Part shown: positions 5,114 through 36,716 of the stretch, one piece after another
Layout: each line of letters starts with the position of its first letter
Numbering within the stretch: position 1 is the stretch's first letter
DNA from: an uncultured Victivallis sp.
GTDB taxonomy: Bacteria; Verrucomicrobiota; Lentisphaeria; Victivallales; Victivallaceae
Direction: 5' to 3'
Assembly (NCBI RefSeq): GCF_944391105.1
Contig: NZ_CALXSK010000012.1
Span: 11,414-75,413 of the forward strand
Length of the DNA stretch: 64,000 nucleotides
Notes under the pieces: model-generated
Database searches by the model: none
What the model saw: only the letters and a program-made list of their open reading frames with translations
What the model was told of the DNA's origin: nothing
Made by a program: the position numbers and the translations under genes

Positions 5114-5153
5114 ACAATTTTGTTAAACGAAGAGTTTTCTTTCACAATTTTGT
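5114..5153. promoter_or_regulatory. Two ACAATTTTGT palindromic boxes, 30-bp period: candidate enhancer (UAS) for a sigma54 activator
   Basis: Identical 10-mers at 5114-5123 and 5144-5153; same core and period as the boxes at 26630-26673. Confidence 0.65.
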
Positions 5154-5244
5154 CGCACGATTCGTTCTGAATCTGCGTTGAAACCGGAACCCCATCGCCG
5201 TTTTTTCCGGGAAAATTACGATTTTTCATCCTTTTTCCTCAAGT

Positions 5245-5260
5245 TGGCATTCTTTCTGCT
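5245..5260 (+). promoter_or_regulatory. Candidate sigma54 -24/-12 promoter of the secretin pair
   Basis: TGGCATTCTTTCTGCT, GG-N10-GC spacing. Shares AAGTTGGCA and TCTGCT with the glnA promoter. An overlapping extended -10 (TGCTATAAC) is an alternative reading. Confidence 0.6.
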
Positions 5261-19780: not shown

Positions 19781-19781
19781 T

Positions 19782-20612
19782 TCAGATCTTCTCCACAAGT
19801 TCTCCCCGGAACACCTCGACGGCGGGGCCGGTCATGTAAACGTGATTGTCCTCTTCGGAATACTCCACCTGAAGTTCGCCGCCGTCGAGCAGAACGGTCA
19901 CGCGCGAATCCGTGCGGCCGGAGAGCCGTCCCGCAACCGCCGTCGCGCAACTGCCGGTCCCGCAGGCGAGCGTGACGCCGCACCCCCGCTCCCAGACCCG
20001 CATCCGCACCATCTGCGGACCGCGGACCTCTGCGAATTCGACATTGATCCGCTCCGGAAATTGCGGATCGCACTCAAACAGCGGCCCCCACTGCTCCAGC
20101 TCGACGGTCCGGATATCAGGAACAAAAATGACCGCGTGCGGATTGCCCATCGAAACGCAGAACGCGGAAAATTCGCGTCCGCCGACATGCAGCTTCACGT
20201 CCCTGGCTTCCGATTCCGGGTTGCCGGTCACGGGGATCTCTCCGCGCCGCAACCGGGGTTCCCCCATGTCGACCCGCACCGTGCCGTTTTCGAGCACTTT
20301 CGGACGGACGATTCCCCCTTTCGTATGGAGTTCAAATTCGTTTCCGTGCGCGAGCATGCGTCGCTTGATGTAGAGACCGACGCAGCGGGTTGCGTTGCCG
20401 CACATCTCCGGTTCGGAGCCGTCGGCGTTGTAGATGCGCATCTCGAACGCATTGCCCGAGAGATGACGGATCGTCACGACGCCGTCTGCTCCGATGCCGA
20501 AATGACGGTCGCAGAGCCGCGCTGCTACACCGCGCATATCGAATGTGGAACTCTTCGGCAGCTCGGTCAGAATGAAATCATTGCCGAGCCCGTGCCACTT
20601 GGAGATTTTCAT
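19782..20612 (-). CDS. dapF: Diaminopimelate epimerase
   Basis: [34 protein letters not shown] and [19 protein letters not shown]. Confidence 0.96.
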
Positions 20613-22003
20613 AACGCACCTCCTGAAAGATAACGCTCCGCCTCCTGTGCGACGCTCCGTCCCGCCGCGATCGCCCGCACCACGAGCGACGCGCCGGAGG
20701 CGCAGTCACCGGCGCAGAAGATTCCACGTTCCGGAGCGGCCTGCACGCGCCCGCGCTCATCGACCTTGAGTCCGAGTTCCGCGGCGACTCCGTCGGCCGG
20801 AACGCCGATGAATCCCATTGCGAGCAACACGAGGTCGGCAGGAATGATCTCTTCCGACCCGGCCACCTCATGGAACCGGAGCGGTTTGCCGAGCGGAGAA
20901 AGTTCCCACTCAACCGTCACGGCCTCAATGCCGGTGACGTGCCCCTCATCATCGGAAAGGAACCGCTTCGATGCGAGATTCCACCGCCGTTCGCCTCCCT
21001 CCTTGTGGCTCGAACTCGTCCGGAGCATATAGGGCCACTGGGGCCACGGGGTCGAGGGGGAGCGGTTCACCGGCGGTTTCGGCATGATCTCGATCTGGAG
21101 GATCGATTCGGCGCCCTGCCGGATCGAGGTGCCGACACAGTCGCTGCCGGTGTCACCGCCGCCGATCACGACCACACGCTTCCCCGTCGCGCAGACCGGA
21201 AGATCCGCGCATTCGCGGCCGATAACGCGATTCTGCCCCTGGAGGAATTCGAGCGCAAAATGGATCCCTGCGGCCTCACGGCCCGGAATTTTCAAGTCGC
21301 GTGCCATCGGCGTGCCGATGGCGAGAACGACCGCGTCATTGCGGCGCGCAAGGTAATCGCCCGAGACGTCGCGCCCGACCTCGGTGTTGAGTTCAAACCG
21401 GATTCCGGCTTCACGCATGAGGTTGATCCGGCGGTCGATGATCTTTTTCGCAAGTTTGAAATCCGGAATGCCATAGCGCAGCAGACCGCCGGGAGAGGCG
21501 TTCTTTTCAAAAACCGTCACCTCGTGTCCCGCGAGATTCAGTGCCGCGGCGACGGCAAGCCCTGCGGGGCCCGCACCGATCACGGCCACGCGGCGGCCCG
21601 TACGTTTTGCCGGAATGAGAGGCTTTACGAAACCACTGCGGAATGCGGTTTCGGTCACGGCCTTCTCCAGCTGCCGGATCATGACCGGCTCGCTGTTGAT
21701 GCCATCCGTGCAGGACCCCTCGCACAAAGCGGGGCAGATCCGGCTGGTGAACTCGGGGAACGAACTCGTCGAGGAGAGGATATCCCACGCTTTCTCCCAG
21801 TTTCCGGCCCCCGCGGCCGCGTTGATCTCGGGGATCACATTGCCGAGCGGGCAGCCGGTTCCGTGGCAGAACGGGATGCCGCAGTTCATGCAGCGTTCCG
21901 CCTGCCCCTTGAGTTCATCGAACGAAAGAGTGCGTTCGACCTCATCAAAATCCCGGCGGCGCAATTCGACCGGGCGGTATATCTCCTGAATTCTCTGATT
22001 CAT
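20609..22003 (-). CDS. gltD: Glutamate synthase small subunit
   Basis: RCMNCGIPFCH, CPLGN, RICPALCEGSC, VAVIGAGPAG and VVIGGGDTGSDC. Confidence 0.95.
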   Translation of the reverse strand: MNQRIQEIYRPVELRRRDFDEVERTLSFDELKGQAERCMNCGIPFCHGTGCPLGNVIPEINAAAGAGNWEKAWDILSSTSSFPEFTSRICPALCEGSCTDGINSEPVMIRQLEKAVTETAFRSGFVKPLIPAKRTGRRVAVIGAGPAGLAVAAALNLAGHEVTVFEKNASPGGLLRYGIPDFKLAKKIIDRRINLMREAGIRFELNTEVGRDVSGDYLARRNDAVVLAIGTPMARDLKIPGREAAGIHFALEFLQGQNRVIGRECADLPVCATGKRVVVIGGGDTGSDCVGTSIRQGAESILQIEIMPKPPVNRSPSTPWPQWPYMLRTSSSHKEGGERRWNLASKRFLSDDEGHVTGIEAVTVEWELSPLGKPLRFHEVAGSEEIIPADLVLLAMGFIGVPADGVAAELGLKVDERGRVQAAPERGIFCAGDCASGASLVVRAIAAGRSVAQEAERYLSGGAL

Positions 22004-22031: not shown

Positions 22032-25000
22032 TCAATTGTCTTCCTTGCGGCGGTCGACCGCCTCGGCGTCCTCGCGTGCCATGCGTCCGAGCGCCTGGCG
22101 ATATTCCACCGGGAACACCTTTACGAACATCGGACGGGTGTTGACCCAGTCCGCGAGAACGGCGGCGGCCTTTTCGCTGCCGGTCGCGGCGGCATGTTCG
22201 CGCAGAAGTCCGAGCAGTTCGGCTTCGTCCTCGCTGCCGGGCTCGACCGTCTCGAGGTCGACGCTCCCGACGTTGCAACGCAGATCGAAGTCGCCCGACT
22301 CGTCATACACATATGCGATGCCGCCGGTCATGCCGGCCGCAAAGTTCACGCCGGTCGAACCGAGCACGACCACGCGCCCGCCGGTCATGTATTCGCAGCC
22401 GTGGTCGCCGACCCCTTCGGTGACGAGCGTCGCGCCGGAGTTGCGGATGGCGAACCGTTCGCCCGCCTGCCCCGCGAGGAAGATCTTCCCCGAGGTGGCG
22501 CCGTAACCGATCACGTTGCCGGCGATGACGTTGTCTGCCGCGCAGAACCGTGCCTCCGGAGCGGGACGGATCACAATGCAGCCGCCCGAAAGCCCTTTGC
22601 CGACGAAGTCGTTCGCCTCGCCTGCGAGTTCGAACGTGATGCCCGGCGCGAGAAATGCGCCGAAGCTCTGCCCCGCGCAACCAGTAAAGTGCACGCGGAT
22701 CGTCCCTTCCGGCAAACCATTCTCCCCGAAACGCTCCGTCACCTCGCCCGAAAGTTCCGTTCCGGCGGTGCGGTCGACGTTGCGGATCACGCACTCGAGT
22801 TCAGCGGGCTTGCCGCTCTTGAGACTTGCTGCGAGCTTCGGCAGAAGTTCGCGCCGGTCGAAGTTTACGAGCGGCTCGTGCGGGGCAGCCGCATCAAAGC
22901 GGATCGCAGCCCCGGCCGCCGGACGAAGCAGATTCGAGAAGTCGAGATTGCGCGCCTTGTAGAAGTCGATCGCGCGATTCATCTCAAGCAGGTCGCTGCG
23001 GCCGCATGCCTCGTCGAGACTGTGCAGTCCGAGGCGAGCGAGGTGTTCGCGCACCTCTTCGGCGATGAAGCGCAGGAAGTTGATGATATACTCCGGCTTG
23101 CCGGCGAAGCGCTTGCGCAGTTCCGGATCCTGGGTCGCGACGCCGACCGGGCAGGAGTTCTCATGGCATTTGCGCATCATCACACAGCCGAGACAGACAA
23201 GTACGGTCGTGGCGAATCCGAACTCCTCAGCGCCGAGCAGCGCGCCGATCACGACGTCGCGCCCGGTCTTGAGCTGGCCGTCGACCTGCACCTTCACACG
23301 ATTGCGCAAGTTGTTCAACACAAGGGTTTGCTGAGTTTCCGCAAGGCCGAGTTCCCACGGCAGTCCCGCATGCTTGATGCTGGTCAACGGCGAAGCGCCG
23401 GTCCCGCCGTCATGCCCGGCGACGAGCACCACGTCGGCATGCGCCTTGGCGACACCGGCGGCGATGGTTCCGACGCCGACTTCCGAAACAAGCTTGACCG
23501 AGACGCGCGCCTTCGGATTCGCGTTCCGCAGATCGTAGATGAGCTGCGCGAGATCCTCGATCGAATAGATGTCATGGTGCGGCGGCGGCGAGATCAGCGT
23601 CACATTCGGCATCGAATGGCGCAGTTTCGCAATGAAGCGGTCGACTTTGTGGCCGGGGAGCTGCCCCCCCTCGCCCGGCTTCGCGCCCTGCGCCATTTTG
23701 ATCTGGAGATCCTTCGCGTGGCGCAGATAGTCGATGGTCACGCCGAAACGGCCCGATGCGATCTGCTTGATCGCGCTCATCTTGCTGTCGCCTTCCGGAG
23801 TCGGCACGTAACGGGAGGAGTCTTCACCGCCCTCGCCGCAGTTGCTCATGCCGCCGAGCCGGTTCATGGCGATCGCAATGGTCTCATGCGCTTCCGGGCT
23901 GAGCGACCCGAGCGACATCGCACCGGAGACGAACCGTTTCACGATCGAGTCGACACTCTCGACCTCCTCGATCGGAATGCTCCTGGTCTCGACAAATCCG
24001 AAGAGGCCGCGCAATGTGCAGAGATGTCCGGCCTGGTCATCGATGAGTTTCGAATACTCCTTGAACTTCGCGTAGTCGCCGGTCTGCACCGCCTGGCGGA
24101 AGGCCGCGAGCGAAGCGGGGGTCCAGAGATGCTGTTCCCCGTCCTTGCGGAACCGGTAGGAGCCGCCGTCCGGCAGGAGCGGGCTTTCCTGCTGCGCGGC
24201 TGCGCGGCGGGTGTTCGCTTCTTCGGCGATTTCGGCAAGTCCGATGCCGCCGATGCGGCTGGCGGTTCCGGGCAGATATTCGTCGATGAGTTCACGCGAG
24301 AGCCCCACCGCCTCAAACACCTGGCCGGAACGATAGCTGCGCAGCGTAGAAATCCCCATCTTGGACATGACCTTCAAAAGGCCCTTGTCAACCGCATTGA
24401 TGTAATTTGTCGCCGCGGTCACCGGGTCGACGGAAACCGCGCCGGAACGGGCGAGCCCGGTCACGGTTTCGAGCGCGAGGTACGGATTCACCGCCGTCGC
24501 GCCGTAGCCGATCAGCAGTGCGAAGTGCATGATCTCGCGCACTTCACCGGACTCGACCACAACGCCGGTCTCGGGGCGAAGTCCCGCCGCCGAGAGTGCG
24601 CGGTTCACGGCAGCCGTCGCAAGCAGCGACGGAATCGGCGTCGTGCCGGGGGACGGATTCCGGTCCGAAAGGATCAGAATCCGGCAGTTCTCACGCACGG
24701 CGGCAATCGCGTCGGTGGCAAGCCGCTTCAAGGCCTTGTCGAGCTGTCGCCCGTCCCCGCCGGCCGGGAATTCCATCGGCAGTGTCTTTGACCGGAAATC
24801 GTTCGCTCCGATGTGGCGCAGCCGGGAAAGTTCATCGTCGGTCAGCACGGGACGTTGAAGTTTCACAAGCCGCGCATGCAGCGGAGTTTCTGCGAGGATA
24901 TTTCCCTTGTTTCCGATGTAGGTGAGCAGACTCATGACCAGCTCTTCGCGGATCGGGTCGATCGGCGGATTCGTCACCTGAGCAAAAAGCTGCTTGAAAT

Positions 25001-26522
25001 AATTGAAGAGCAGCTGCGGCTTCGTCGAGAGCACGGCGAGCGCCGCATCGTTGCCCATCGAGCCGACCGGTTCGTGACCGGTCGCGGCCATCGGGCCGAT
25101 CAGCATCTCGACATCTTCACGGGTGTAGCCGAAGAGCTTCTGCATATAGAGCAGATTGCCGGGAACCTCCGCAGGAGTGATTTCCGAAAAGAGTCCATGA
25201 ACCGGAATCTTGTTCTCCTCAACCCAGCGGCGATAGGGCTTCTGCCGCGCGACGCGGTTCTTGATTTCGCGGTCGGAGAGCAGCCGATGGTGTTCGAGAT
25301 CGAGATAGATCATCTCGCCCGGACGCAACCGCCCCTTGCGCACAACCTCGGCCGGATCGAGATCGAGCACGCCGGTTTCCGAAGCGAGAACAAAAAGTCC
25401 GTCCCGGCAGAGTGTGTAGCGGGCGGGGCGCAGTCCGTTTCGATCGAGGATCGCACAGGCGTTCACACCATCGCTCGCAGCGACCGCGGCGGGGCCGTCC
25501 CACGGCTCCATCAGAGCGGAGTGATATTCGAAGAATCCGCGCACGTCGCGTCCGAGATGGTAATTCTTGCCCCACGCCTGCGGCATGAGCATCAAAAGCG
25601 CGTGCGCAAGGTCACGACCCGCAGCCACGAGCAGTTCGAACATGTTGTCGAGCGAAGCCGAGTCGCTCTGCCCGGGCGCCACGAGCGGCAGGAGCTTGGC
25701 CATGTCGTCACCGAAGAGCTCCGAGGCGAGAAACGGCTCGCGGGCGCGCAGACTGTTCAAATTTCCGCGCAGAGTATTGATTTCTCCGTTGTGCGCGAGA
25801 TAGCGGAACGGGTGCGCGAGATTCCAGGTGGGAAACGTGTTCGTGCTGTACCGTTGATGCACAAGTGCGAGCGGCGACTGGAAGTCCGGGTCGCCGAGAT
25901 CGGGATAGAACGCCTCCAGCTGCGTCGCGAGCAGCAATCCCTTGTAGACGATGCTGCGGCTGGACATGCTGCAGATATACGCTTCGGGGATGGACTTCTC
26001 GATGAGACGCCGCATGACGAAGAGCTTGCGTTCGAACGCGGCGCGATCGGGATAATTTGCGCCGCCGATGAAGAGCTGACGGATCTCCGGACAGCTTTCG
26101 CGCGCTGCGCGACCGATCCGGTCAGGAACGGTCGGAACCTCGCGCCAGCAGAGGATTTCACCGCCCTCCCCCTTGACGATCGACTCGATTTCCGCCTCGT
26201 GCCCGGTTCCGCCGAAGATCATCGCGACACCGTAAGCGCCAGGTTCCGGAAGATTCGGAACCGTCTTGCGGAAAAACTTGTCCGGCATCGACAGAAGCAG
26301 CCCGGCGCCGTCACCGGTGTTCGGATCACCGCCGGAAGCGCCACGGTGCATGAGCCGCTTCAGCACGGTCAGACCCATTGTTACAATTTTGTGAGACGGC
26401 ACATTGTTGAGGTCGGCTACCATGCCGACACCGCATGCGTCATGTTCGTTGGCGAAGCGGTAGAGGCCGTTCTCCGCCACGGGAGGGCGGTCAAACCGCC
26501 GTTGCTGTCGTTGCTTTTCCAT
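22032..26522 (-). CDS. gltB: Glutamate synthase large subunit
   Basis: EHDACGVG (Ntn Cys), HQRYSTNT, HNGEINT, IKMAQGAKPGEGGQLPG, CVMMRKCHENSCPVGVATQ and GCEYMTGG. Confidence 0.97.
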   Translation of the reverse strand: MEKQRQQRRFDRPPVAENGLYRFANEHDACGVGMVADLNNVPSHKIVTMGLTVLKRLMHRGASGGDPNTGDGAGLLLSMPDKFFRKTVPNLPEPGAYGVAMIFGGTGHEAEIESIVKGEGGEILCWREVPTVPDRIGRAARESCPEIRQLFIGGANYPDRAAFERKLFVMRRLIEKSIPEAYICSMSSRSIVYKGLLLATQLEAFYPDLGDPDFQSPLALVHQRYSTNTFPTWNLAHPFRYLAHNGEINTLRGNLNSLRAREPFLASELFGDDMAKLLPLVAPGQSDSASLDNMFELLVAAGRDLAHALLMLMPQAWGKNYHLGRDVRGFFEYHSALMEPWDGPAAVAASDGVNACAILDRNGLRPARYTLCRDGLFVLASETGVLDLDPAEVVRKGRLRPGEMIYLDLEHHRLLSDREIKNRVARQKPYRRWVEENKIPVHGLFSEITPAEVPGNLLYMQKLFGYTREDVEMLIGPMAATGHEPVGSMGNDAALAVLSTKPQLLFNYFKQLFAQVTNPPIDPIREELVMSLLTYIGNKGNILAETPLHARLVKLQRPVLTDDELSRLRHIGANDFRSKTLPMEFPAGGDGRQLDKALKRLATDAIAAVRENCRILILSDRNPSPGTTPIPSLLATAAVNRALSAAGLRPETGVVVESGEVREIMHFALLIGYGATAVNPYLALETVTGLARSGAVSVDPVTAATNYINAVDKGLLKVMSKMGISTLRSYRSGQVFEAVGLSRELIDEYLPGTASRIGGIGLAEIAEEANTRRAAAQQESPLLPDGGSYRFRKDGEQHLWTPASLAAFRQAVQTGDYAKFKEYSKLIDDQAGHLCTLRGLFGFVETRSIPIEEVESVDSIVKRFVSGAMSLGSLSPEAHETIAIAMNRLGGMSNCGEGGEDSSRYVPTPEGDSKMSAIKQIASGRFGVTIDYLRHAKDLQIKMAQGAKPGEGGQLPGHKVDRFIAKLRHSMPNVTLISPPPHHDIYSIEDLAQLIYDLRNANPKARVSVKLVSEVGVGTIAAGVAKAHADVVLVAGHDGGTGASPLTSIKHAGLPWELGLAETQQTLVLNNLRNRVKVQVDGQLKTGRDVVIGALLGAEEFGFATTVLVCLGCVMMRKCHENSCPVGVATQDPELRKRFAGKPEYIINFLRFIAEEVREHLARLGLHSLDEACGRSDLLEMNRAIDFYKARNLDFSNLLRPAAGAAIRFDAAAPHEPLVNFDRRELLPKLAASLKSGKPAELECVIRNVDRTAGTELSGEVTERFGENGLPEGTIRVHFTGCAGQSFGAFLAPGITFELAGEANDFVGKGLSGGCIVIRPAPEARFCAADNVIAGNVIGYGATSGKIFLAGQAGERFAIRNSGATLVTEGVGDHGCEYMTGGRVVVLGSTGVNFAAGMTGGIAYVYDESGDFDLRCNVGSVDLETVEPGSEDEAELLGLLREHAAATGSEKAAAVLADWVNTRPMFVKVFPVEYRQALGRMAREDAEAVDRRKEDN

Positions 26523-26569
26523 AAAATTCAGTGCTCCTTTCTGAATTGTTAATTTTTTTAAAGGATATA

Positions 26570-26585
26570 AGCAATTATCGTGCCA
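26570..26585 (-). promoter_or_regulatory. sigma54 -24/-12 promoter of the gltB operon
   Basis: Minus strand reads TGGCACGATAATTGCT, a full match to TGGCACG-N4-TTGCW; AAAGGAG RBS downstream. Confidence 0.9.
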
Positions 26586-26629
26586 GCTCTGTTATGAGCG
26601 GAGAACGGGCCTTTCTGTACCGCCATATC

Positions 26630-26673
26630 TTACAAAAATGTAAAATCCCGCCATGACTCTTACATTTTTGTAA
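26630..26673. promoter_or_regulatory. Two TTACA-N4-TGTAA palindromes (30-bp period): shared enhancer of the divergent gltB and glnA promoters
   Basis: ttacaaaaatgtaa (26630-26643) and ttacatttttgtaa (26660-26673) are exact reverse complements of each other, centred between the two sigma54 promoters. Confidence 0.8.
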
Positions 26674-26717
26674 AACATTATCGGAAGAAACGGCCCCCTT
26701 TGTGCTCAAAACAAAGT

Positions 26718-26733
26718 TGGCACGCAATCTGCT
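26718..26733 (+). promoter_or_regulatory. sigma54 -24/-12 promoter of the glnA operon
   Basis: TGGCACGCAATCTGCT, GG-N10-GC; AGGAGG RBS before ATG 26781. Confidence 0.87.
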
Positions 26734-26780: not shown

Positions 26781-28913
26781 ATGAGCAATCTGAACCGAAT
26801 GAAGGCCGTTGACGCGGTGGCGGAACTCCGCGGAGGCGAACCGATGCCGGCCAAGCCGGTCAATCTCGACTGCTATGCCGAGGACGTGTTCAACATCGAC
26901 TGCATGCGGGAATATCTCTCGAAGTCCGTCTGCGAAAAGCTGCTCGCGACGATCACCAAGGGCGAACCGCTCGACCCGGACATCGCCGGCGACGTCGCCC
27001 ACGCGATGAAGCACTGGGCGCTGGAACGCGGCGCGACCCACTACACGCACTGGTTCCAGCCGCTGACCGGCTCCACCGCCGAGAAGCACGACGCGTTCCT
27101 CGAACCGGACGGAGCGAAGGCGATCATGAGCTTCTCCGGAAAAAACCTCATTGTCGGCGAGCCCGATGCGTCGAGCTTCCCATCCGGCGGGCTGCGCTCC
27201 ACCTTCGAGGCGCGCGGTTATACGGCCTGGGACCCGACCAGCCCGGCTTTCATCAAACGTCATGCGAACGGCGCGACGCTCTGCATTCCGACCGCGTTCT
27301 GCAGTTACACCGGCGAGGCGCTCGACAAGAAGACTCCGCTGCTGCGCTCCATGCAGGCTCTCTCAGTCTCCACAAAACGACTGATGAAGTGCTTCGGACT
27401 GCCCGAGGAGCGGGTCACGATCACGCTTGGACCTGAACAGGAGTACTTCCTCGTGGACAAGCACTTCTATTTGCAGCGCCCCGACCTCGTCCAGACCGGG
27501 CGCACCGTCTTCGGCGCGCCGCCGCCGAAACATCAGCAGCTGGAAGACCACTACTTCGGCTCCATCAAGAACCGCATTCTCTCGTTCATGACCGAGGTCG
27601 AGCAGGAGCTCTGGAAACTCGGAATTCCGGCCAAGACCCGTCACAACGAGGTTGCGCCCGCCCAGTTCGAGCTCGCGCCGATGTTCGAGGAGCTGAATCT
27701 CGCCTGCGACCACAACATGCTCGTCATGGAAGTGCTCCGCCAGGTTGCCGACCGCAACGGACTGGTCTGCCTGCTGCATGAAAAGCCGTTCGCAGGAATC
27801 AACGGCTCCGGCAAGCACAACAACTGGTCGGTCGCCTACGGCAAGCGCAATCTGCTCAATCCGGGTACGGATCCGCATCAGAACGCGATCTTCCTGACCG
27901 TGCTTACGGCGATCATCGAAGCGGTCGACATGCACGGAGATCTGCTGCGGGCCTCCGTCACCGGCGCGGGCAACGACCACCGGCTCGGAGCGAACGAAGC
28001 GCCCCCGGCGATCATCTCGATGTATCTCGGCGACCAGCTCGCGGATGTGATCGACCAGCTCGAAAAGGGAACCCCCACGTCGAGCCGCCATCCTGGCGCG
28101 ATGCGAATCGGAGCGGACACGCTCCCGCCGCTGCCGCGCGATGCGACCGATCGCAACCGGACCAGCCCCTTCGCCTTCACCGGCAACAAGTTCGAATTCC
28201 GGGCCCCGGGTTCGAGCCAGTCCTGCTCCGGTCCGAACACGATCCTCAACACGATCGTTGCCGAGGCGTTCGACCGCATGAGCGATGTGCTTGAGAAACT
28301 CAGCAAGGAAGAGTTTCACGCCGGGCTTCAGAAGCATCTGCAGCAGGTCATCAAGGCGCACAAGCGGATCATCTTCAACGGCGACGGCTACACCGAAGAG
28401 TGGCTCAAGGAGGCCGAAAAGCGCGGTCTGCCGAATGCCCGGACCACGATGGAGGCGCTGCGCTGCCTGACCGCTCCGGCGAACGTCGCGATGCTCGAAA
28501 AGTACGGCGTCTACAACCGCCGCGAACTCGAATCGCGGTTTGAGGTCTTCCTTGAGGAGTACCATCGCCGGATCCGCATCGAAGGTGAGATCGCGCTTGA
28601 GATCGCGACCAGCATGATCACGCCGGTCGTCACCGCTGAATACGGCAAAGTCGCGAAATCCCTCGCCGCGGCAAAAGAGGCCGGACTCACTGCCGGACTC
28701 GCTGCGATGGAGAGCTCCGCAGCCGCCCTCGGCGCCGGACTCGACGATCTCGCGCAGAAGTGTGCGGAACTCAAGACCGCTCTCGGCGGACTCCATGAAG
28801 AGATCCTCGAAGCGATGGCGAATTTGCGCGGAACGGTCGACTCGCTCGAACGGCTCGTCGCCGATGAGTGCTGGCCGCTGCCGAAGTACCGCGAAATGCT
28901 CTTCGTCTACTAA
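26781..28913 (+). CDS. glnA: Glutamine synthetase type III
   Basis: 710 aa; GATHYTHWFQPLTG, EPDASSFPSGG, HNEVAPAQFE, HEKPFAGINGSGKH, DRNRTSPFAFTGNKFEFRA. Confidence 0.96.
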   Translation: MSNLNRMKAVDAVAELRGGEPMPAKPVNLDCYAEDVFNIDCMREYLSKSVCEKLLATITKGEPLDPDIAGDVAHAMKHWALERGATHYTHWFQPLTGSTAEKHDAFLEPDGAKAIMSFSGKNLIVGEPDASSFPSGGLRSTFEARGYTAWDPTSPAFIKRHANGATLCIPTAFCSYTGEALDKKTPLLRSMQALSVSTKRLMKCFGLPEERVTITLGPEQEYFLVDKHFYLQRPDLVQTGRTVFGAPPPKHQQLEDHYFGSIKNRILSFMTEVEQELWKLGIPAKTRHNEVAPAQFELAPMFEELNLACDHNMLVMEVLRQVADRNGLVCLLHEKPFAGINGSGKHNNWSVAYGKRNLLNPGTDPHQNAIFLTVLTAIIEAVDMHGDLLRASVTGAGNDHRLGANEAPPAIISMYLGDQLADVIDQLEKGTPTSSRHPGAMRIGADTLPPLPRDATDRNRTSPFAFTGNKFEFRAPGSSQSCSGPNTILNTIVAEAFDRMSDVLEKLSKEEFHAGLQKHLQQVIKAHKRIIFNGDGYTEEWLKEAEKRGLPNARTTMEALRCLTAPANVAMLEKYGVYNRRELESRFEVFLEEYHRRIRIEGEIALEIATSMITPVVTAEYGKVAKSLAAAKEAGLTAGLAAMESSAAALGAGLDDLAQKCAELKTALGGLHEEILEAMANLRGTVDSLERLVADECWPLPKYREMLFVY

Positions 28914-28931
28914 AAAGAAAGGAGTGGCGGC

Positions 28932-30698
28932 ATGTCCGATTCGATTCAACACGAGTGTGCGGTCAGCATGTTGCGGCTCCGCCGCAACATCGCCCACTAT
29001 GTCCGCAAGTACGGAACGCCGTTCTACGGGTACGAACACCTCGCGCTTCTGCTCGAAAAACAGCACAACCGCGGGCAGGACGGCGCGGGTATCGGCTGCG
29101 TCCGGCTCGACCCCGTTCCCGGCGAACCGTGTTTCTCGCTCGAAAAGTCGAACCGGAACATGCCGCTTGCCGACCTGCTTGAGCGGATCGGCAAGACGAT
29201 CCCGCAGGGGGAGGATCCCCGCTCCGCCTCGGAACGGCGGAATCACCCCTTCTGCGGAGAGCTCTACCTCGGGCATCTGCGGTACGGCACCTTCGGACGG
29301 GGCGGGCTCGACGCCTGTCATCCCTTTGTCCGCCCGAATTCCTGCCTGAACCGCACGCTGCTGCTCGCGGGAAACTTCAACCTGACCGATACGCGGGAAC
29401 TGTTTGCAAAACTCATTGCGACCGGCCACCACCCGGCGAGCCGTGCGGACGGGTATCTGATTCTGCAGATGATCGGCCACTGCCTGGAAAAGGCGCTCGA
29501 CCGGAATCCGCACGGCGCGGATCTCGCGGCGGTACTGCGCGAGGCATGCGGCGATTTCGACGGAGCGTTCACCCTCTGCGGGCTGCTTGGAGACGGAACC
29601 GGATTCGCGATTCGCGATGCAGCCGGAATCCGCCCGGGTTATTTCTATTTCGATGATGAAGTCGCCGTCGTAAGCTCCGAACGTCCGGCCATTCAGGCCG
29701 CGTTCGACTGCACGACCGCCGAAGTCTCCGAACTTCCTCCGGGGGAAGCTCTGATCATCGGCCGGGACGGCAACGTTGAATTCCGCCCCTGTCTCGATCC
29801 GAAGCCGCTGCGCCGCTGTGTGTTTGAGCGCATCTACTTCTCGCGCCCGAACGACGCGGACATCCACCGCGAACGGCGCGCGCTCGGCCGCAAACTCGTG
29901 CCTGCCGTGCTGCACGAAGTGGAGGAGGATTTTGAAAACACGCTCTTCTCCTACATTCCGAACACCGCCCAGGCGAGTTTCCACGGCCTGCTCGACACCT
30001 TGAACCACATCGCCTGCGAGGCGGGGCGCACCGTCCGGTTCGGCCAGATCGCGATCAAGGACGCGAAGTTCCGCACCTTCATCGCCGACGCGGCCAGCCG
30101 GAAGGAGTTCTACATGCACATTTATGACGTGACCTACGGGCTGGTCCGGCCCGGTTCGGACACGCTCGTCGCGCTCGACGATTCGATCGTGCGCGGCAAT
30201 ACGCTCAGAAACGCGATTCTTCCGATCTTCGACCGGCTCTCACCGAAGAAGATCGTCATTGCCTCGGCCGCGCCGCCGATCAAATATCCCGACTGTTACG
30301 GCATCGACATGGCCAGCCTGAAAGAACTTGTCGCCTTCGAAGCCGCCGTCGATCTGCTGCGCGAACGCGGAAACCTCGCACTGCTCCAGCAGTGCTACGA
30401 AAATGCAAAACGACAGCTCGAAGGCCCCGCCGACGAGATGACCAACTGTGTACGCCCGGTCTATGACGAGATTTCCGACGCGGATCTCAGCCGTGCGATC
30501 GCCGCACGATTGAAACCGGAGGGAATGCGCGCGGAGTTTGCAGTCATCTTCCAGAGCTGCGAAGATCTCGCCGAGTGCTGTCCGGAACACACCGGCAACT
30601 GGTATTTCACCGGAGATTATCCGACTCCGGGCGGGTTCCGCGTCGTGAACCGCGCCCTCGTGAACTATATCGAACACATCGACGCAAGAGCTTACTGA
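28932..30698 (+). CDS. purF: Amidophosphoribosyltransferase-like protein (class II glutamine amidotransferase + PRTase, Bacteroidetes-type PurF)
   Basis: MSDSIQHECA (Ntn Cys after a short propeptide), QHNRGQDGAG, GHLRYGT, CVFERIYFSR and PRPP-binding DDSIVRGNT. Confidence 0.85.
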   Translation: MSDSIQHECAVSMLRLRRNIAHYVRKYGTPFYGYEHLALLLEKQHNRGQDGAGIGCVRLDPVPGEPCFSLEKSNRNMPLADLLERIGKTIPQGEDPRSASERRNHPFCGELYLGHLRYGTFGRGGLDACHPFVRPNSCLNRTLLLAGNFNLTDTRELFAKLIATGHHPASRADGYLILQMIGHCLEKALDRNPHGADLAAVLREACGDFDGAFTLCGLLGDGTGFAIRDAAGIRPGYFYFDDEVAVVSSERPAIQAAFDCTTAEVSELPPGEALIIGRDGNVEFRPCLDPKPLRRCVFERIYFSRPNDADIHRERRALGRKLVPAVLHEVEEDFENTLFSYIPNTAQASFHGLLDTLNHIACEAGRTVRFGQIAIKDAKFRTFIADAASRKEFYMHIYDVTYGLVRPGSDTLVALDDSIVRGNTLRNAILPIFDRLSPKKIVIASAAPPIKYPDCYGIDMASLKELVAFEAAVDLLRERGNLALLQQCYENAKRQLEGPADEMTNCVRPVYDEISDADLSRAIAARLKPEGMRAEFAVIFQSCEDLAECCPEHTGNWYFTGDYPTPGGFRVVNRALVNYIEHIDARAY

Positions 30699-30741
30699 AA
30701 CGAAACATGGAACATCAAACATACTGATAAGGAGCACAGAT

Positions 30742-31842
30742 ATGTTACATTGGAAAGAGCGGCGCGAACGGGCCGCATTCCTCGCGCTCGCGAACGGGGC
30801 GATATTCCGGGGCTGGAGCTTCGGCGCCCCCGTCGACACGGTCGGGGAAGCGGTGTTCAACACCGGCATGAGCGGGTATCAGGAGATTGTGACGGATCCC
30901 TCCTACGCAGGGCAGTTCGTCACGTTGACCGCCCCCGAAATTGGAAATTACGGCTGCAATCCGCAGGACGAGGAGTCCCGCGGATTGTTTCTGAACGGGC
31001 TCGTGATCCACGAACTCAATGAGCCCTCGAACTTCCGCTCCGAGGAGTCGCTTGCGGACTACCTCAAGCGGAACGGCAAACCCGGCATCGCCGGGGTCGA
31101 TACGCGCCGTCTCACGCTCATGCTGCGCGACGAAGGCAGTCAGAAGGCGTATCTGCACACAAGTGCCGAGCCGCTCACGGAAGCCGAGGCGGTCGAACGC
31201 GCCCGCGCCTGGGAGGGACTTGACGGACAGGATTACGCCGCCCGGGTCACGACCGGGAAGCCTTACGAATGGAATTCCGAGGGAGAGTTCCACGTCGTCG
31301 CGTTCGACTTCGGGATCAAATACAACATTCTGCGCGGACTTGCCGCAAACAACATGCGCGTAACCGTCCTGCCCGCCGCAGCGACGGCGGAAGACGCACT
31401 TGCGCGGAATCCCGACGGAGTGTTCCTCTCGAACGGCCCGGCCGACCCGGCCGCCGTCGGCTATGCGATCCGGACGATCCGGGAGCTCATCGGCAAGGTG
31501 CCGCTCTTCGGGATCTGCCTCGGGCATCAGCTTTTCGGGCTCGCCTCCGGAGCGGAGTGCGGAAGATTGAAATTCGGCCACCACGGCTGCAACCACCCGG
31601 TCCGGAATCTGCTGACGAACCGGGTAGAGATCACCTCCCAGAATCACAACTTCGCGCTGAAAGCCGGGGCGCTGCCCGCGACGCTCGAAGTCACGCACAT
31701 CAACTTGAACGACAATACGATCGAGGGTGTCCGCCACCGCACGGAGCCCGCCGCGTCGGTGCAGTTCCATCCGGAAGCCGCGCCGGGTCCGCACGATTCG
31801 TTTTCGCTTTTCCAGGAATTCCGGAAACTCATGGAGCGCTGA
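30742..31842 (+). CDS. carA: Carbamoyl-phosphate synthase small subunit
   Basis: GEAVFNTGMSGYQE, FLSNGPADP, GICLGHQ and QFHPEAAPGPHD. Confidence 0.96.
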   Translation: MLHWKERRERAAFLALANGAIFRGWSFGAPVDTVGEAVFNTGMSGYQEIVTDPSYAGQFVTLTAPEIGNYGCNPQDEESRGLFLNGLVIHELNEPSNFRSEESLADYLKRNGKPGIAGVDTRRLTLMLRDEGSQKAYLHTSAEPLTEAEAVERARAWEGLDGQDYAARVTTGKPYEWNSEGEFHVVAFDFGIKYNILRGLAANNMRVTVLPAAATAEDALARNPDGVFLSNGPADPAAVGYAIRTIRELIGKVPLFGICLGHQLFGLASGAECGRLKFGHHGCNHPVRNLLTNRVEITSQNHNFALKAGALPATLEVTHINLNDNTIEGVRHRTEPAASVQFHPEAAPGPHDSFSLFQEFRKLMER

Positions 31843-31848
31843 AATATC

Positions 31849-33459
31849 ATGACCAGACACATCTTCATTACCGGCGGGGTCGTTTCGAGCCTCGGCAAAG
31901 GCATCACGGGCGCGGCGCTCGCGATGCTGCTTGCGAAACGGGGTTATCGCGTCGCCATGCAGAAGCTCGATCCCTATCTGAACGTCGACCCCGGCACCAT
32001 GAGCCCCTACCAGCACGGCGAGGTGTTCGTGACCGACGACGGCGCCGAGACGGACCTCGACCTCGGCCACTATGAACGCATCGCCGGAGTCGTATGCACG
32101 AAGGCGAGCAACTATACGAGCGGCAAAATCTACAGCAACGTCATCAACCGCGAACGTTCCGGCGGCTATCTCGGCGGAACCGTGCAGGTCGTTCCTCACA
32201 TCACCGACGAGATCAAGCGCGCGATGCAGTCACTGCACCGACCGCAGGTCGACATCGCGATCACCGAGATCGGAGGAACGGCGGGAGACATCGAAAGTCT
32301 CCCGTTCCTTGAAGCTGCGCGGCAGTTCAAACTCGCGGCGCGGCGCGACGAGGTGATCTTTGTGCACCTCACGCTCGTTCCCTACATCCGCGCGGCGAAG
32401 GAGCTCAAGACCAAGCCGTCTCAGCACTCGGTCTCGACGCTTCAGAGCATCGGCATCGCGCCGGACATCCTCGTCTGCCGCACGGAGATCCCGATGGAGG
32501 AGGAGCATTTCAAGAAGCTCTCGATGTTCTGCAACGTCCCGCGCGACTGCGTGATCGAGGAGCTCGACGTGAAAAACTCGATCTACGAAGTTCCGCTCGA
32601 ACTCGCGCGGCAGGGACTCGACCTCAAGGTGCTTGAACTCCTGCGGCTTGAGCCGGGCGAACTCGATCTGGACGACTACCGCGTCTGGCTCGACGGCGTG
32701 CTGCATCCGGAAACGGAGTGCACCGTCGCCGTGGTCGGAAAATACATCCGCCACCAGGACGCCTACAAGAGCATCTACGAAGCGCTCAGCCACGCTGGAA
32801 TCCACCACCATGCGAAAGTCCATTTTCTGCCGGTCGAAGCCGAGGAGCTCGAGACCGGCGACGCGGCAGAGATCCTCGGGAAAGCGGACGCGATCCTCGT
32901 CCCCGGCGGCTTCGGCGAACGCGGTGTGCCCGGCAAGATCAAGGCGGTCGAATACGCCAGAACGCACAAGATCCCGTTCCTCGGCATCTGCCTCGGCATG
33001 CAGTGCGCGGTCATTGAATTCGCACGCGACGTGGTCGGCTGGGGAGATGCGAACAGCACCGAGTTCGACAGTGCGACGACGCACCCGGTCATCGACCTCA
33101 TGGAGGAGCAGCGCTCCGTCACAGCCAAGGGCGGCACGATGCGGCTCGGCGCCTATCCGTGCGTTCTCGTTCCGGGGAGCCGCAGTGCGAAACTCTACAA
33201 CGCCTCCGAAATCAGTGAACGTCATCGCCACCGTTACGAGTTCAATCCGGCGTTCAAGCGCGAACTTGAAGCGGCCGGGCTCAAAGTCGCTGGCGCGAGC
33301 CCCGATGGACAGCTCGCAGAGATCGTGGAACTCGAAGCGGGACATCCGTTCTTCATCGGCTGCCAGTTCCATCCTGAATTCAAATCCCGCCCCCGGCAGC
33401 CCCATCCGCTCTTCGACGGACTGATCGCGGCGGCGCTTCAGCAGCGGAAAGGAAATTGA
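31849..33459 (+). CDS. pyrG: CTP synthase
   Basis: [46 protein letters not shown] and QFHPEFKS. Confidence 0.97.
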
Positions 33460-33461
33460 TT

Positions 33462-36400
33462 ATGCCGAAACGCGACGATATCAGAAAAATCATGTTGATC
33501 GGCTCCGGCCCGATCGTCATCGGCCAGGGGTGCGAATTTGACTACTCCGGCGTACAGGCGTGCAAGGCGCTGAAGCGCGAGGGATTCGAGGTTGTGCTCG
33601 TAAACAGCAATCCGGCCACGATCATGACGGATCCGGAGTTCGCCGACCGCACCTACATCGAACCGTTGACGGCGGACATTCTGCACGAGATCATCCGGCG
33701 GGAACGGCCCGACGCGCTGCTGCCGACCCTCGGCGGTCAGACCGCGCTGAACCTCGCGATGGAACTCGAAAAACGGGGCATTCTCGAACGCTATCAGGTC
33801 GAACTCATCGGCGCGACCGCCGAAGCGATCGAACGCGCCGAGGACCGGCAGCTCTTCAAACAGTGCATGCTCGGGATCGGCCTCGATCTGCCGCGCTCCG
33901 GATCGGCCCATTCGATGGCCGAAGCGCAGGCGGTCGCCTCGACGATCGGCAGCTGGCCGCTCATCATACGGCCCGGCTTCACGCTCGGCGGCACCGGCGG
34001 CGGCATCGCCCGGGATCAGAAGGAGTTCGAAGAGATCGTCCGGCGCGGACTTGACGCGAGCATGAACTCCGAAGTGCTCATTGAGGAGTCACTGCTCGGC
34101 TGGAAGGAGTTCGAGATGGAGGTCATGCGCGACAAGGCCGGCAACGCGGTCATCGTCTGCTCGATCGAAAACCTCGATCCGATGGGCGTCCACACGGGCG
34201 ACTCGATCACGATTGCGCCGATCCAGACTCTCACCGACCGCGAATATCAGGCCATGCGCGACGATTCGCTCGCAGTCATGGCGGCGATCGGCGTCGAAAC
34301 CGGCGGCTCGAACGTCCAGTGGGCCGTGAATCCGGAAACCGGACGGCGGATCATCATCGAGATGAATCCGCGCGTGTCGCGGTCAAGCGCCCTCGCCTCC
34401 AAGGCGACCGGTTTTCCGATCGCGAAGATCGCCGCCCTGCTGGCGGTCGGCTACACGCTCGATGAACTGCGCAACGATATCACCGGCAGCACGCCGAGCT
34501 GTTTCGAGCCGTCGCTCGACTATGTGGTGACGAAAGTTCCGCGCTTCACGTTCGAGAAGTTCCCGATGGCCGACTCGACGCTCGGCACTCAGATGAAGTC
34601 GGTCGGGGAAGCCATGGCGATCGGACGCAACCTCAAGCAGTCGCTGCAGAAGGCGCTGCGCTCGCTCGAGACCGGACGGGCCGGATTCGGCGCCGACGGC
34701 AAAGACGGCAAATTCGAATCGATGGACGACGAGACGCTCAAAGCCGAACTCATCCGCCCGAACGCGGAGCGGATCTTCGTCATCCGCGCCGCACTGAAGC
34801 GCGGCTGGAACGTCGAAACGCTCAACGAACTCACCGGAATCGACCCGTATTTTCTGCGCCATCTCGCGGAACTTGCGGCTTTTGAGGAGGAGATCCGCTC
34901 GGCCGGAACGCTCGCGGGACTCGAAGCCGACCGGCCGCTCTTCCTGCAGGCCAAGGAGCTCGGGTACAGCGACCGCCAGATCGCGTTCCTGCTCGGAACG
35001 ACGGAACTTGAGGTGCGCGCCGCACGGCGCCGCATCGGGCTCGAACCGTTCTACGGGACCGTCGACACCTGCGCCGGAGAGTTCGAGGCGATCACGCCCT
35101 ACTACTACTCGGCCTGGGGCGAAGGGGGCGAACCGGTCCGCGATCACGGCGGCCGCAAAACGATCATGGTGCTCGGCGGCGGTCCGAACCGCATCGGTCA
35201 GGGGATCGAATTCGACTACTGCTGCTGCCACGCCGCTTTCGCGCTGCACAAAGCCGGTTACGAGGTGGTCATGGTCAACAGCAATCCGGAAACCGTCTCG
35301 ACCGACTACGATACGAGCGACAAACTCTATTTCGAGCCGCTCACTCTTGAGGATGTCATGCACATCTACGAGCGGGAGTCGTGTTCGGGGGTGATCGTGC
35401 AGTTCGGCGGCCAGACGCCGCTGAATCTCGCGCAGCAGCTCCGCGCCGCGGGAGCGAACGTGATCGGCACGTCGCCGGACGACATCGACGCGGCCGAGGA
35501 CCGCGACTTCTTCAAACAGCTCGCCTCCCGGATCGGCATCCGTCAGCCCGAGAGCGGCATTGCGCACAGCGTCGACGAAGCGGTCGCCATCGCGGAGAAG
35601 ATCGGCTACCCGCTGCTGGTGCGTCCATCGTTCGTGCTCGGCGGGCGCGGCATGGTCATCGTCTACAAGGAGAAGTATCTGCGTAAATTCGTCGAGGAGG
35701 CCGCCGCTGTCGCGGAAGGGAAACCGATTCTGATCGACCGTTTCCTCGAGGATGCGACCGAACTCGACGTCGACTGCATCTCGGACGGGAAAACCACGGT
35801 GATCGGCGCGATTCTCGAACACGTCGAACCGGCGGGGATCCACTCCGGCGACTCGGCCAGCGTGATTCCGCCGATGACGCTTTCAAAGGAGATTCAGGAG
35901 CAGGTGCGCGAATATGCCCGGGCGTTCGCCCGCGAACTTCACGTCTGCGGACTCATGAACATGCAGCTTGCGGTCAAGGACGGAGAAATCTACATCATCG
36001 AAGTCAATCCGCGCGCCTCGCGGACGGTGCCTTTCGTGAGCAAGGCGACCGGGGTGCCGCTGGCGGCGCTCGCGGCGCGCTGCATGGCGGGAGAAACGCT
36101 TGAATCGCTCGGCTTCACGCAGGAGGTGCACATTCCGTACACCGCCGTGAAAGAGGCGGTCTTCCCGTTCGTGAAGTTCCCGGGGGTGGACATCGTGCTT
36201 TCGCCGGAGATGAAATCCACGGGCGAGGTCATGAGTCTCGATGCGGAACGGGGGCTGGCATATCTGAAGAGCCAGCTTGCGGCGGGGAACAAGCTGCCTC
36301 CTGCGGGGAACGTCTTCATCTCGCTGCGCGACCAGGACAAGCCCAAGGCGGTGAAACTCGCGGAAAAGCTTGTAAAGCTCGGGTACAACCTTTACGCGAC

Positions 36401-36716
36401 GCTCGGGACTTCGACGCTGCTCTACAATGCGGGAATCAAGACCAAAGCGGTCTTCCGAATCTCGCGTGGACGGCCGAACATCCTCGACCTGATCCGGGAG
36501 AAGGAGATCCAGTGGATCATCAACTCCTCGGAATCCGGCGCAGAGGCGATGGTCGACGAGATCCGTATGCGCTCCGGCGCGGTTGTCTCAGGGATACCGA
36601 TCACGACCACGATCGCGGGGCTGACCGCCGCCATCGAGGGGCTCGCAGACAAGGCGGACTTCGGCCGTTTCGAAGTGTGCAGCCTCCAGGAGTACCACCG
36701 GCATATTCACCGCTGA
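33462..36716 (+). CDS. carB: Carbamoyl-phosphate synthase large subunit
   Basis: [58 protein letters not shown] and [16 protein letters not shown]. Confidence 0.97.

What the first reader, a model, noticed from the sequence alone, without database searches (positions are those of the whole stretch)
26570..26733. Symmetric bidirectional sigma54 promoter with a non-canonical central enhancer
Seen: the -24 GG of gltB (26583-26584) and of glnA (26719-26720) are each exactly 68 bp from the centre (26651.5) of two TTACA-N4-TGTAA palindromes. The palindromes are mutual reverse complements and also part of a direct repeat (cgccat..tcttaca....tgtaaaa). Established: NifA sites are TGT-N10-ACA and NtrC sites TGCAC-N7-GTGCA; this motif matches neither. 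Inference: one activator assembly fires both GS and GOGAT operons from a shared site with a distinct recognition sequence.
Basis: partly seen in the sequence, partly recalled or inferred. Interest (0 to 1): 0.62.

Follow-up and report, generated by a model that had tools for sequence, protein, structure and literature searches.

The report
Shared nitrogen enhancer between glnA and gltB
The gap between the glutamine synthetase and glutamate synthase genes of this Victivallis-like gut bacterium holds two outward-facing sigma-54 promoters and, midway between them, two conserved docking sites, most likely for a NifA-like nitrogen-sensing activator; this is a sound new example of a known kind of switch.

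Summary
Two consensus sigma-54 promoters face outwards, towards gltB (26570-26585, minus) and type III glnA (26718-26733, plus). Each -24 GG lies exactly 68 bp from the midpoint of two TTACA-N4-TGTAA palindromes, which are the only exact copies in the 3.7 Mb genome.

The design is conserved. In 12 members of the genus both promoters and both boxes (consensus TTTTACA-N4-TGTAAAA, 29-32 bp apart) are kept while the rest of the spacer drifts, and the nearer box stays 52-55 bp from each -24 element. Similar boxes precede sigma-54 promoters of glnK-amtB, gdhA, a urea-carboxylase operon and a secretin pair, so this looks like a nitrogen regulon.

No NifA, NtrC, NtcA, GlnR, CRP or FNR consensus is present.

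The likeliest binder is the NifA-like GAF/AAA+/HTH activator at the end of the gltBD operon (16971-18506), or its paralogue. Its gene stays linked to glnA or gltB across the order, and three relatives that lack it also lack boxes and sigma-54 promoter at glnA. Binding, start sites and the sensed signal are inferred, not shown.

The same scan saw this layout before (e1-5273604 on this window; e1-4998125 and e1-2651174 on other DNA). Verdict: real, apparently undescribed motif, known kind of switch.

The parts
26570..26585 (-). sigma-54 (-24/-12) promoter of the gltB operon, TGGCAC-N5-TTGCT, 0 mismatches; predicted start near 26559
   Evidence: invariant AGCA...TGCCA columns in 12 genus members
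26718..26733 (+). sigma-54 (-24/-12) promoter of type III glnA, TGGCAC-N5-CTGCT, 1 mismatch; predicted start near 26744
   Evidence: TTGGCACG....TGCT invariant in 12 genus members
26628..26645 (.). enhancer box 1 (TCTTACAaaaaTGTAAAA). It is proximal to the gltB promoter (53 bp to its GG) and distal to the glnA promoter (83 bp).
26658..26675 (.). enhancer box 2 (TCTTACAttttTGTAAAA), centred 30 bp from box 1. It is proximal to the glnA promoter (53 bp) and distal to the gltB promoter (83 bp).
26595..26601 (-). conserved CCGCTCA element 9 bp upstream of the gltB -24 hexamer; role unknown
26702..26708 (+). conserved (C)CGCTCA-type element (here GTGCTCA) 9 bp upstream of the glnA -24 hexamer; role unknown
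   Evidence: G192-A196 nearly invariant or invariant
26381..26394 (.). third box-like site inside gltB (TTACAATTTTGTGA). It is built from rare codons AAA-ATT-GTA that are invariant in six species.
22032..26522 (-). gltB, glutamate synthase large subunit (1496 aa)
20609..22003 (-). gltD-type small subunit
18539..20612 (-). dapF and LL-diaminopimelate aminotransferase, tightly packed behind gltD
16971..18506 (-). NifA-like GAF/AAA+(GAFTGA)/Fis-HTH enhancer-binding protein, last gene of the gltB run; candidate binder of the boxes
26781..28913 (+). glnA, type III glutamine synthetase (710 aa)
28932..36716 (+). genes packed behind glnA: a class-II amidotransferase-like gene, carA, pyrG, carB (glutamine users)
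   Evidence: no convincing intergenic terminator
5114..5260 (+). second copy of the design in the window: two degenerate boxes (ACA-N4-TGT cores 30 bp apart) and TGGCAT-N5-CTGCT before the secretin pair

Best explanation
The two TTTTACA-N4-TGTAAAA palindromes are a shared upstream activating sequence (enhancer) for two divergent sigma-54 promoters.

Proposed mechanism: dimers of a NifA-like one-component activator sit on the two boxes, which lie about three helical turns apart and so on one face of the DNA. The activator is the GAF/AAA+/HTH protein encoded at 16971-18506, possibly together with its 62%-identical paralogue on contig C59. When its GAF domain reports nitrogen limitation, the activator assembles into an ATPase ring. 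Short DNA loops then let the ring open the sigma-54 closed complex at either promoter. The box centres lie 53 and 83 bp from each -24 element, about 5 and 8 turns.

Output: the gltB-gltD-dapF-dapL-activator operon, which would give positive autoregulation, and the glnA-carA-pyrG-carB operon. The same boxes tie glnK-amtB, gdhA, a urea-carboxylase operon and a secretin pair into one nitrogen regulon.

Shown: the sequence elements, their conservation, their recurrence and the gene linkage. Inferred: who binds, the signal (2-oxoglutarate by analogy with NifA, from my own knowledge), the ring assembly, the start sites and the operon extents.
For: - The elements sit at the stated coordinates and the two boxes are unique in the genome.
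- rpoN is present once.
- In 12 genus members the only conserved blocks of the spacer are the two promoters, the two boxes and a CCGCTCA element.
- Box spacing is 29-32.5 bp and the proximal box lies 52-55 bp from GG on both sides.
- A weight matrix trained on the relatives only finds, in this genome, sigma-54 promoters of a urea-carboxylase operon, glnK-amtB, gdhA and the secretin pair.
- The genome has five sigma-54 activators. Only three have an HTH, and two of those are the GAF paralogues.
- The GAF activator gene lies within about 10 kb of glnA/gltB or directly beside glnA across the order.
- Relatives G012, G023 and G026 (96-99% complete) have no GAF activator. They have neither boxes nor a sigma-54 promoter before glnA, although G012 and G023 keep a receiver-type activator.
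- A Syntrophaceae-labelled MAG has the same paired boxes and a sigma-54 promoter before amtB-glnK. It also has a 53%-identical GAF activator with a similar recognition helix, SIRIINYKI against SPRVIHYKI.
- The activator aligns end to end with NifA (PDB 9qq6_C, E 9e-103), HTH included.
Against: - No binding or expression data exist.
- The RNA contigs cover both coding regions thinly and leave the spacer empty, so they say nothing about start sites.
- G021 (88% complete) has boxes and a sigma-54 promoter before glnA, but no GAF activator was found in its assembly.
- G028 and G034 have the activator but a box-less glnA; that gene may be the second paralogue.
- The same paired boxes plus a sigma-54 promoter occur in Robertmurraya and Bacillus coreaensis next to a PAS-type activator whose HTH is different. 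The box is therefore not diagnostic of one HTH type.
- The two GAF paralogues cannot be told apart as binders.
- The 5-N4-5 geometry also fits CRP/FNR-type dimers.
Confidence: 0.7

Rival explanations
1. The boxes are an enhancer, but for a different activator: the receiver-type (NtrC-like) REC/AAA+/HTH protein on contig C7, working with an unlinked kinase.
For: It is the only other activator with an HTH. Its helix (SRRTLHRKL) resembles that of the Robertmurraya PAS activator, which sits beside identical boxes. G021 has boxes but only a receiver-type activator was found in it.
Against: It lies behind an RNase G gene; no kinase gene was called on its upstream side and the ORF just downstream was not annotated. 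It shows no linkage to nitrogen genes. G012 and G023 keep such a protein yet have no boxes or sigma-54 promoter at glnA. No NtrC-type consensus is present in the spacer; the best match has 5 mismatches.
Confidence: 0.14
2. The boxes bind a non-activator dimer with CRP/FNR-like 5-N4-5 geometry. This could be a nitrogen repressor or an architectural co-factor. The sigma-54 activator would then act from another site, perhaps the CCGCTCA elements, or from solution.
For: TTACA-N4-TGTAA has the same half-site geometry as FNR-type sites (my own knowledge). A second conserved element, CCGCTCA, lies 9-10 bp upstream of each -24 hexamer and is unexplained. Thalassobellus has paired boxes with no sigma-54 promoter nearby.
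Against: Boxes come in pairs three turns apart, upstream of sigma-54 promoters in six operons, which is the classic enhancer layout. CCGCTCA is missing from the glnK and secretin promoters. It lies at about -40, where an activator ring could hardly loop. No CRP or FNR consensus is present.
Confidence: 0.1
3. The palindromes are chance A+T-rich sequence in a promoter-rich spacer and have no function.
For: The spacer is A+T-rich, 40-45% G+C against about 62% in the genes. Single boxes with one mismatch are no commoner than a reversed control genome-wide.
Against: They are the only two exact copies in 3.7 Mb, 30 bp apart. The pair is conserved in position and sequence across the genus and family while the flanks diverge. 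The paired pattern is found in 13 of 41 genomes against 0 for the control.
Confidence: 0.01

Closest known systems
NtrC-dependent glnAp2 enhancer of enteric bacteria
   Same: A sigma-54 promoter of a glutamine synthetase gene is activated from two dyad sites about three helical turns apart, on which an AAA+ ring assembles. It forms the hub of a nitrogen regulon that includes amtB-glnK (my own knowledge; PMC8743547 for the regulon).
   Different: The recognition sequence differs: no TGCACC-N5-GGTGCA is present. The sites are closer, about -78 and -108 instead of -108 and -140. They serve two promoters. The GS is type III. The likely activator is a GAF one-component protein, not a phosphorylated receiver protein. 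No GlnD was found over cut-off.
NifA and its TGT-N10-ACA upstream activating sequence
   Same: The activator has the same GAF/AAA+/Fis-HTH architecture and aligns over its full length with NifA (PDB 9qq6_C). The recognition helix has the same frame, SPRVIHYKI against TPRQIAYRI.
   Different: It scores below the NifA equivalog cut-off (465 against 529 bits) and the C-terminal part of that model is not matched. No nifH is in the genome. No TGT-N10-ACA is in this spacer or in 16 orthologous spacers. The ACA/TGT triplets face inwards with N4 between them instead of outwards with N10.
Aquifex aeolicus NifA-like homologues Nlh1 and Nlh2
   Same: They are GAF-regulated sigma-54 activators in an organism without nitrogenase. 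Their GAF domains match residues 4-178 of this protein (PDB 4g3k, 4g3v).
   Different: Similarity is low (E 1e-17 to 6e-13). As far as I know, their targets and DNA sites are not established.
Leptospira EbpA-RpoN pathway
   Same: A GAF-type, kinase-independent activator drives a sigma-54 promoter of amtB and is needed under nitrogen limitation (review PMC12655853).
   Different: EbpA has two GAF domains and is FhlA-like. Its regulon has three genes and does not include GS/GOGAT as shown targets. I could not read its binding site because the primary paper is not held.
Divergent sigma-54 units sharing one spacer in E. coli (zraP/zraSR; hyc/hyp from my own knowledge)
   Same: Two outward-facing sigma-54 promoters have activator sites between them (PMC8743547 lists zraP<>zraSR as a bidirectional spacer bound by the RpoN holoenzyme).
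   Different: The activators, motifs and functions are different. Here the geometry is mirror-symmetric and kept within about 2 bp across a genus.

Membership tests
sigma-54 (-24/-12) promoter | GG and GC dinucleotides 10 bp apart within TGGCAC-N5-TTGCW | tested here: met
   0 mismatches on the gltB side and 1 on the glnA side
sigma-54 (-24/-12) promoter | the organism encodes sigma-54 and activators with GAFTGA | tested here: met
   one rpoN; five PF00158 proteins; GAFTGA seen in the alignment of the two GAF paralogues
sigma-54 (-24/-12) promoter | transcription starts about 12 nt downstream of the GC | tested here: inconclusive
   RNA-run contigs cover both genes thinly, give zero depth over 26470-26804 in run X1, and show no start pile-ups
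sigma-54 (-24/-12) promoter | conserved at the same place in orthologous regions | tested here: met
   both promoters present in all 16 orthologous spacers examined
bacterial enhancer (UAS) for an AAA+ activator | two or more dyad-symmetric sites in helical phase, roughly 70-150 bp upstream of the promoter | tested here: met
   18-bp palindromes 29-32.5 bp apart, centred about -78 and -108 for each promoter
bacterial enhancer (UAS) for an AAA+ activator | the same site type recurs at other sigma-54 promoters of one regulon | tested here: met
   urea-carboxylase operon, glnK-amtB, gdhA and secretin pair
bacterial enhancer (UAS) for an AAA+ activator | bound by the activator and required for activation | not testable with these tools
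   needs a gel-shift (EMSA) or footprinting assay and reporter mutants
NtrC sites / NtrBC system | TGCACC-N5-GGTGCA dyads | tested here: not met
   the best match in the spacer has 5 of 12 positions wrong
NtrC sites / NtrBC system | receiver-domain activator paired with an NtrB kinase, GlnD and PII upstream | tested here: not met
   the one REC-type activator has no kinase called on its upstream side, and the downstream ORF was not annotated; GlnD is below cut-off; there is a single PII, glnK
NifA UAS / NifA equivalog | TGT-N10-ACA upstream of the promoter | tested here: not met
   none in this spacer or in 16 orthologous spacers
NifA UAS / NifA equivalog | protein scores over the TIGR01817 cut-off and nif genes are present | tested here: not met
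   464.8 bits against a cut-off of 528.85; no nifH (genome 94.9% complete)
NifA-like (GAF/AAA+/Fis-HTH) activator family in the broad sense | GAF, sigma-54 interaction and HTH_8 domains in that order, with full-length similarity to NifA | tested here: met
   Pfam; PDB 9qq6_C aligned 10-502 to 22-517

The most novel reading that the evidence does not exclude
A NifA-family, kinase-independent sensor has taken over the role of NtrBC as master nitrogen regulator in Lentisphaerota, and apparently in some other little-studied lineages such as a Syntrophaceae MAG. It would use an undescribed TTTTACA-N4-TGTAAAA code. The mirror-symmetric enhancer, fixed within about 2 bp, would make GS and GOGAT promoters compete for or alternate on a single activator ring and so balance the two halves of the GS-GOGAT cycle. 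A third site written in rare codons inside gltB would fine-tune this.
Probability: 0.3. Interest if true: 0.6.

Novelty: new member of a known kind. Interest (0 to 1): 0.42.

Why it matters
Nitrogen control in the Lentisphaerota and their relatives is essentially unstudied; I found no paper on it in the held library. This locus gives three things:
- a concrete DNA code;
- a short list of target operons (GS, GOGAT, AmtB/GlnK, GDH, urea carboxylase, a secretin pair);
- a candidate one-component sensor.

All of it is testable in the cultivable Victivallis vadensis type strain, which carries the same design (L061). It also adds a case where a NifA-type protein governs assimilation rather than nitrogenase, and a clean natural model for how one enhancer serves two sigma-54 promoters. 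It does not change how sigma-54 control is understood.

Tried and rejected
- RNA evidence for the start sites. Four RNA-labelled runs hold only short contigs, the spacer is uncovered in the true RNA run, and there are no start pile-ups. Uninformative.
- Counting single boxes with one mismatch in genomes with and without the GAF activator. Counts equal the reversed control in both groups, so the test has no power.
- Using the Robertmurraya / Bacillus coreaensis loci as independent support for an HTH-to-box link. Rejected, because their PAS-type activator has a different recognition helix.
- Treating records labelled Akkermansiaceae, Thermoguttaceae, Fibrobacter and Agathobacter as cross-phylum evidence. 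Rejected for now. Their GS, GOGAT and activator are 59-74% identical to the window's, which overlaps the 54-74% range of same-order relatives. The 'Agathobacter' contig has 64% G+C. Mis-binning or transfer cannot be excluded.
- Taking the 'cgccat' direct repeat as part of the site. It is not conserved.
- Canonical NifA, NtrC, NtcA, GlnR/TnrA, CRP and FNR motifs. Absent.
- Reading the Leptospira EbpA primary paper for its site. The paper is not held.
- Finding the GnfM consensus in the Geobacter paper. It is given only as a figure.

Full report
**1. What is there**

The 258-bp spacer 26523-26780 separates gltB from glnA.
- gltB is the glutamate synthase large subunit, 22032-26522 on the minus strand, 1496 aa.
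- glnA is a type III glutamine synthetase, 26781-28913 on the plus strand, 710 aa.

The minus strand carries TGGCAC-gataa-TTGCT at 26570-26585. The plus strand carries TGGCAC-gcaat-CTGCT at 26718-26733. Between them lie TTACAaaaaTGTAA (26630-26643) and TTACAttttTGTAA (26660-26673). These two are exact reverse complements of each other. Their common midpoint, 26651.5, is 68.0 bp from the centre of each -24 GG.

**2. More than chance**

- The two boxes are the only exact TTACA-N4-TGTAA matches in the 3.72 Mb assembly.
- In the window, 5 matches with up to one mismatch were found against 0.12 expected.
- A strict paired pattern occurs once in each of 13 of 41 related genomes. 11 of the 13 matches lie in a glnA-gltB spacer. 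The reversed control pattern occurs in none.

**3. Conservation**

The organism belongs to Victivallis or a close relative. Earlier scan notes name it so. V. vadensis DSM 14823 and several Victivallis MAGs carry GS and GOGAT 75-85% identical, with the same design.

The divergent gltB/glnA arrangement is kept in 16 relatives for which I recovered the spacer. In an alignment of 12 genus members the mean column identity is 59%. The invariant columns fall in the two -24/-12 elements, the two boxes and a short GCTCA block. The box consensus is TTTTACA-N4-TGTAAAA with an A/T spacer.

Geometry:
- Box centres are 29-32.5 bp apart.
- In the genus, the box nearer each promoter is 52-55 bp from that promoter's GG, on both sides. 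The mirror symmetry is therefore itself conserved within about 2 bp.
- Outside the genus the distances vary from 40 to 98 bp.

**4. A regulon**

I trained a weight matrix on the relatives' boxes only and combined it with a sigma-54 promoter scan of this genome. Besides gltB and glnA it recovers four promoters:
- an ABC-transporter/urea-carboxylase operon (C12:5110, box 55 bp from GG);
- glnK-amtB (C43:34334, two boxes);
- gdhA (C57:12960, four box-like sites);
- the secretin pair in this window (boxes at 5114-5153 with ACA-N4-TGT cores 30 bp apart, promoter at 5245-5260).

This is a coherent nitrogen-scavenging set. The genome has one rpoN and one PII, the glnK in this regulon. No GlnD scored over cut-off and there is no nifH.

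**5. Not a known site**

The spacer has no TGT-N10-ACA (NifA), GTA-N8-TAC (NtcA), TGTNA-N7-TNACA (GlnR/TnrA), CRP or FNR consensus. The best NtrC-type match has 5 of 12 positions wrong. None of the 16 orthologous spacers has TGT-N10-ACA. I found no description of the motif, or of nitrogen control in Lentisphaerota, in the held literature. That library is incomplete.

**6. Who binds**

Five proteins carry the sigma-54 interaction domain. Two lack an HTH. One is a receiver-type protein behind an RNase G gene. Two are GAF/AAA+/HTH paralogues, 62% identical.

The first GAF paralogue (16971-18506) ends the tightly packed gltB-gltD-dapF-dapL run. The gaps there are -17 to 32 bp and there is no convincing terminator. 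If the run is one operon, the activator would be induced by its own enhancer.

Evidence that this family is the binder:
- Its orthologues lie about 8-10 kb from glnA in most genus members. In more distant relatives they lie directly beside glnA (G036, G037, G040, G029, and the second glnA of G033). This comes from comparing.
- Three relatives without such a protein (G012, G023, G026; 96-99% complete) have neither boxes nor a sigma-54 promoter before glnA. G012 and G023 nevertheless keep a receiver-type activator.
- A Syntrophaceae-labelled MAG has the same paired boxes and a sigma-54 promoter ahead of amtB-glnK. It also has a 53%-identical GAF activator with a similar helix.

Evidence against, or limiting it:
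- G021 (88% complete) has boxes but no GAF activator was found there.
- Related genomes are not independent observations.
- Identical boxes sit beside a PAS-type activator with a different helix in Robertmurraya.

I therefore put 0.7 on the GAF family as binder, and I cannot separate the two paralogues.

**7. Family placement of the activator**

The best NCBIfam model is NifA, but the score of 465 bits is under the cut-off of 529 and the C-terminal part of the model is not matched. The best solved structure is a NifA (9qq6_C), aligned 10-502 to 22-517. The helix reads SPRVIHYKI against TPRQIAYRI in NifA. The GAF domains of Aquifex Nlh1 and Nlh2 also match. So it is a NifA-like protein in the broad sense, but not a NifA equivalog.

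**8. Mechanism proposed**

Two dimers sit on boxes three turns apart. On a nitrogen-limitation signal at the GAF domain they assemble into a ring. The signal would be 2-oxoglutarate by analogy with NifA (my own knowledge, untested here). The ring then contacts sigma-54 at either promoter through a short loop. The box centres are about 5 and 8 turns from each -24 element, so they face the same side.

One ring can engage only one promoter at a time, so the two operons would share, and perhaps compete for, the same assembly. This last point is inference.

**9. Comparison**

- The layout works like glnAp2/NtrC but fails the NtrC membership tests.
- The protein resembles NifA but fails the NifA site and equivalog tests.
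- Divergent sigma-54 units sharing a spacer are known (zraP/zraSR, PMC8743547).
- A GAF-type activator controlling amtB is known in Leptospira (PMC12655853).

Hence my placement: a new member of a known kind.

**10. Earlier scan notes**

- e1-5273604 (this window): the secretin promoter shares the design. I re-checked this and agree.
- e1-5273607: the activator as assimilation regulator. I agree.
- e1-4998125 and e1-2651174 describe the same back-to-back layout and paired TTTACA/TGTAAA palindromes on other DNA. I did not check those records.

**11. Unexplained**

- The CCGCTCA element lies 9-10 bp upstream of both -24 hexamers.
- The box-like site inside gltB is written in rare codons. In five genes of this window AAA makes up 29% of Lys codons, ATT 16% of Ile codons and GTA 4% of Val codons. 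These three codons are invariant in six species whose neighbouring third positions vary.

Noticed in passing
window 26381-26394 (inside gltB, codons for H-K-I-V): A third box-like site, TTACAATTTTGTGA, is formed by the rare codons AAA, ATT and GTA (29%, 16% and 4% usage). These codons are invariant in six species while neighbouring third positions vary. The site is lost where the peptide becomes HRIVE. It may be a DNA-level site about 170 bp downstream of the gltB start.
   Followed up: partly
window 26595-26601 and 26702-26708: A conserved CCGCTCA element lies 9-10 bp upstream of the -24 hexamer of both gltB and glnA promoters across the genus. It is absent from the glnK and secretin promoters. 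Its function is unknown.
   Followed up: partly
window 26781-36716: glnA is followed, with gaps of 43 bp or less, by an amidotransferase-like gene, carA, pyrG and carB. The sigma-54 promoter may therefore drive a whole operon of glutamine-consuming enzymes. carB also follows glnA in locus L065.
   Followed up: partly
L031 (G000:C59) 420-445 and 480-3273: A second GAF activator, 62% identical, sits behind a different aminotransferase. A single TGTGACAAATTTGTCAAC palindrome lies just upstream, with no sigma-54 promoter visible. It could be an operator for the paralogue.
   Followed up: partly
L037 / G000:C57:12780-12975: The gdhA sigma-54 promoter has four box-like sites at 75, 89, 121 and 176 bp from GG, out of phase with the 53/83 pattern. 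The control logic may differ here; Geobacter GnfM represses gdhA (PMC2995071).
   Followed up: no
L040, L043, L044, L045, L064 (Robertmurraya spp., Bacillus coreaensis, a Bacillaceae MAG): Identical paired TTTACA-N4-TGTAAA boxes lie 42-43 bp from a TGGCAC-N5-TTGCA promoter, between a PAS/AAA+/HTH activator and an aldehyde dehydrogenase (a GabR/RocR-like system). The activator's HTH is unlike the Victivallis one.
   Followed up: partly
L038 (record labelled Agathobacter rectalis): This contig has 64% G+C and carries gltB, gltD and type III GS 56-72% identical to the window's, with the same boxes. It is almost certainly a mis-binned Victivallales contig.
   Followed up: no
L046 (Thalassobellus citreus) 4586-4631: Perfect paired boxes lie about 260 bp upstream of a GAF activator (43% identical) whose HTH is different. 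No sigma-54 promoter was found nearby.
   Followed up: no
L035 / G000:C12:4900-10400 (just outside the window): The strongest box in the genome (score 27.9) precedes a sigma-54 promoter of an ABC binding protein. ORFs resembling two DUF1989-type proteins and a biotin carboxylase follow, judged by eye from their N-terminal sequences and not run against Pfam; this would be a urea carboxylase route under the same control.
   Followed up: partly
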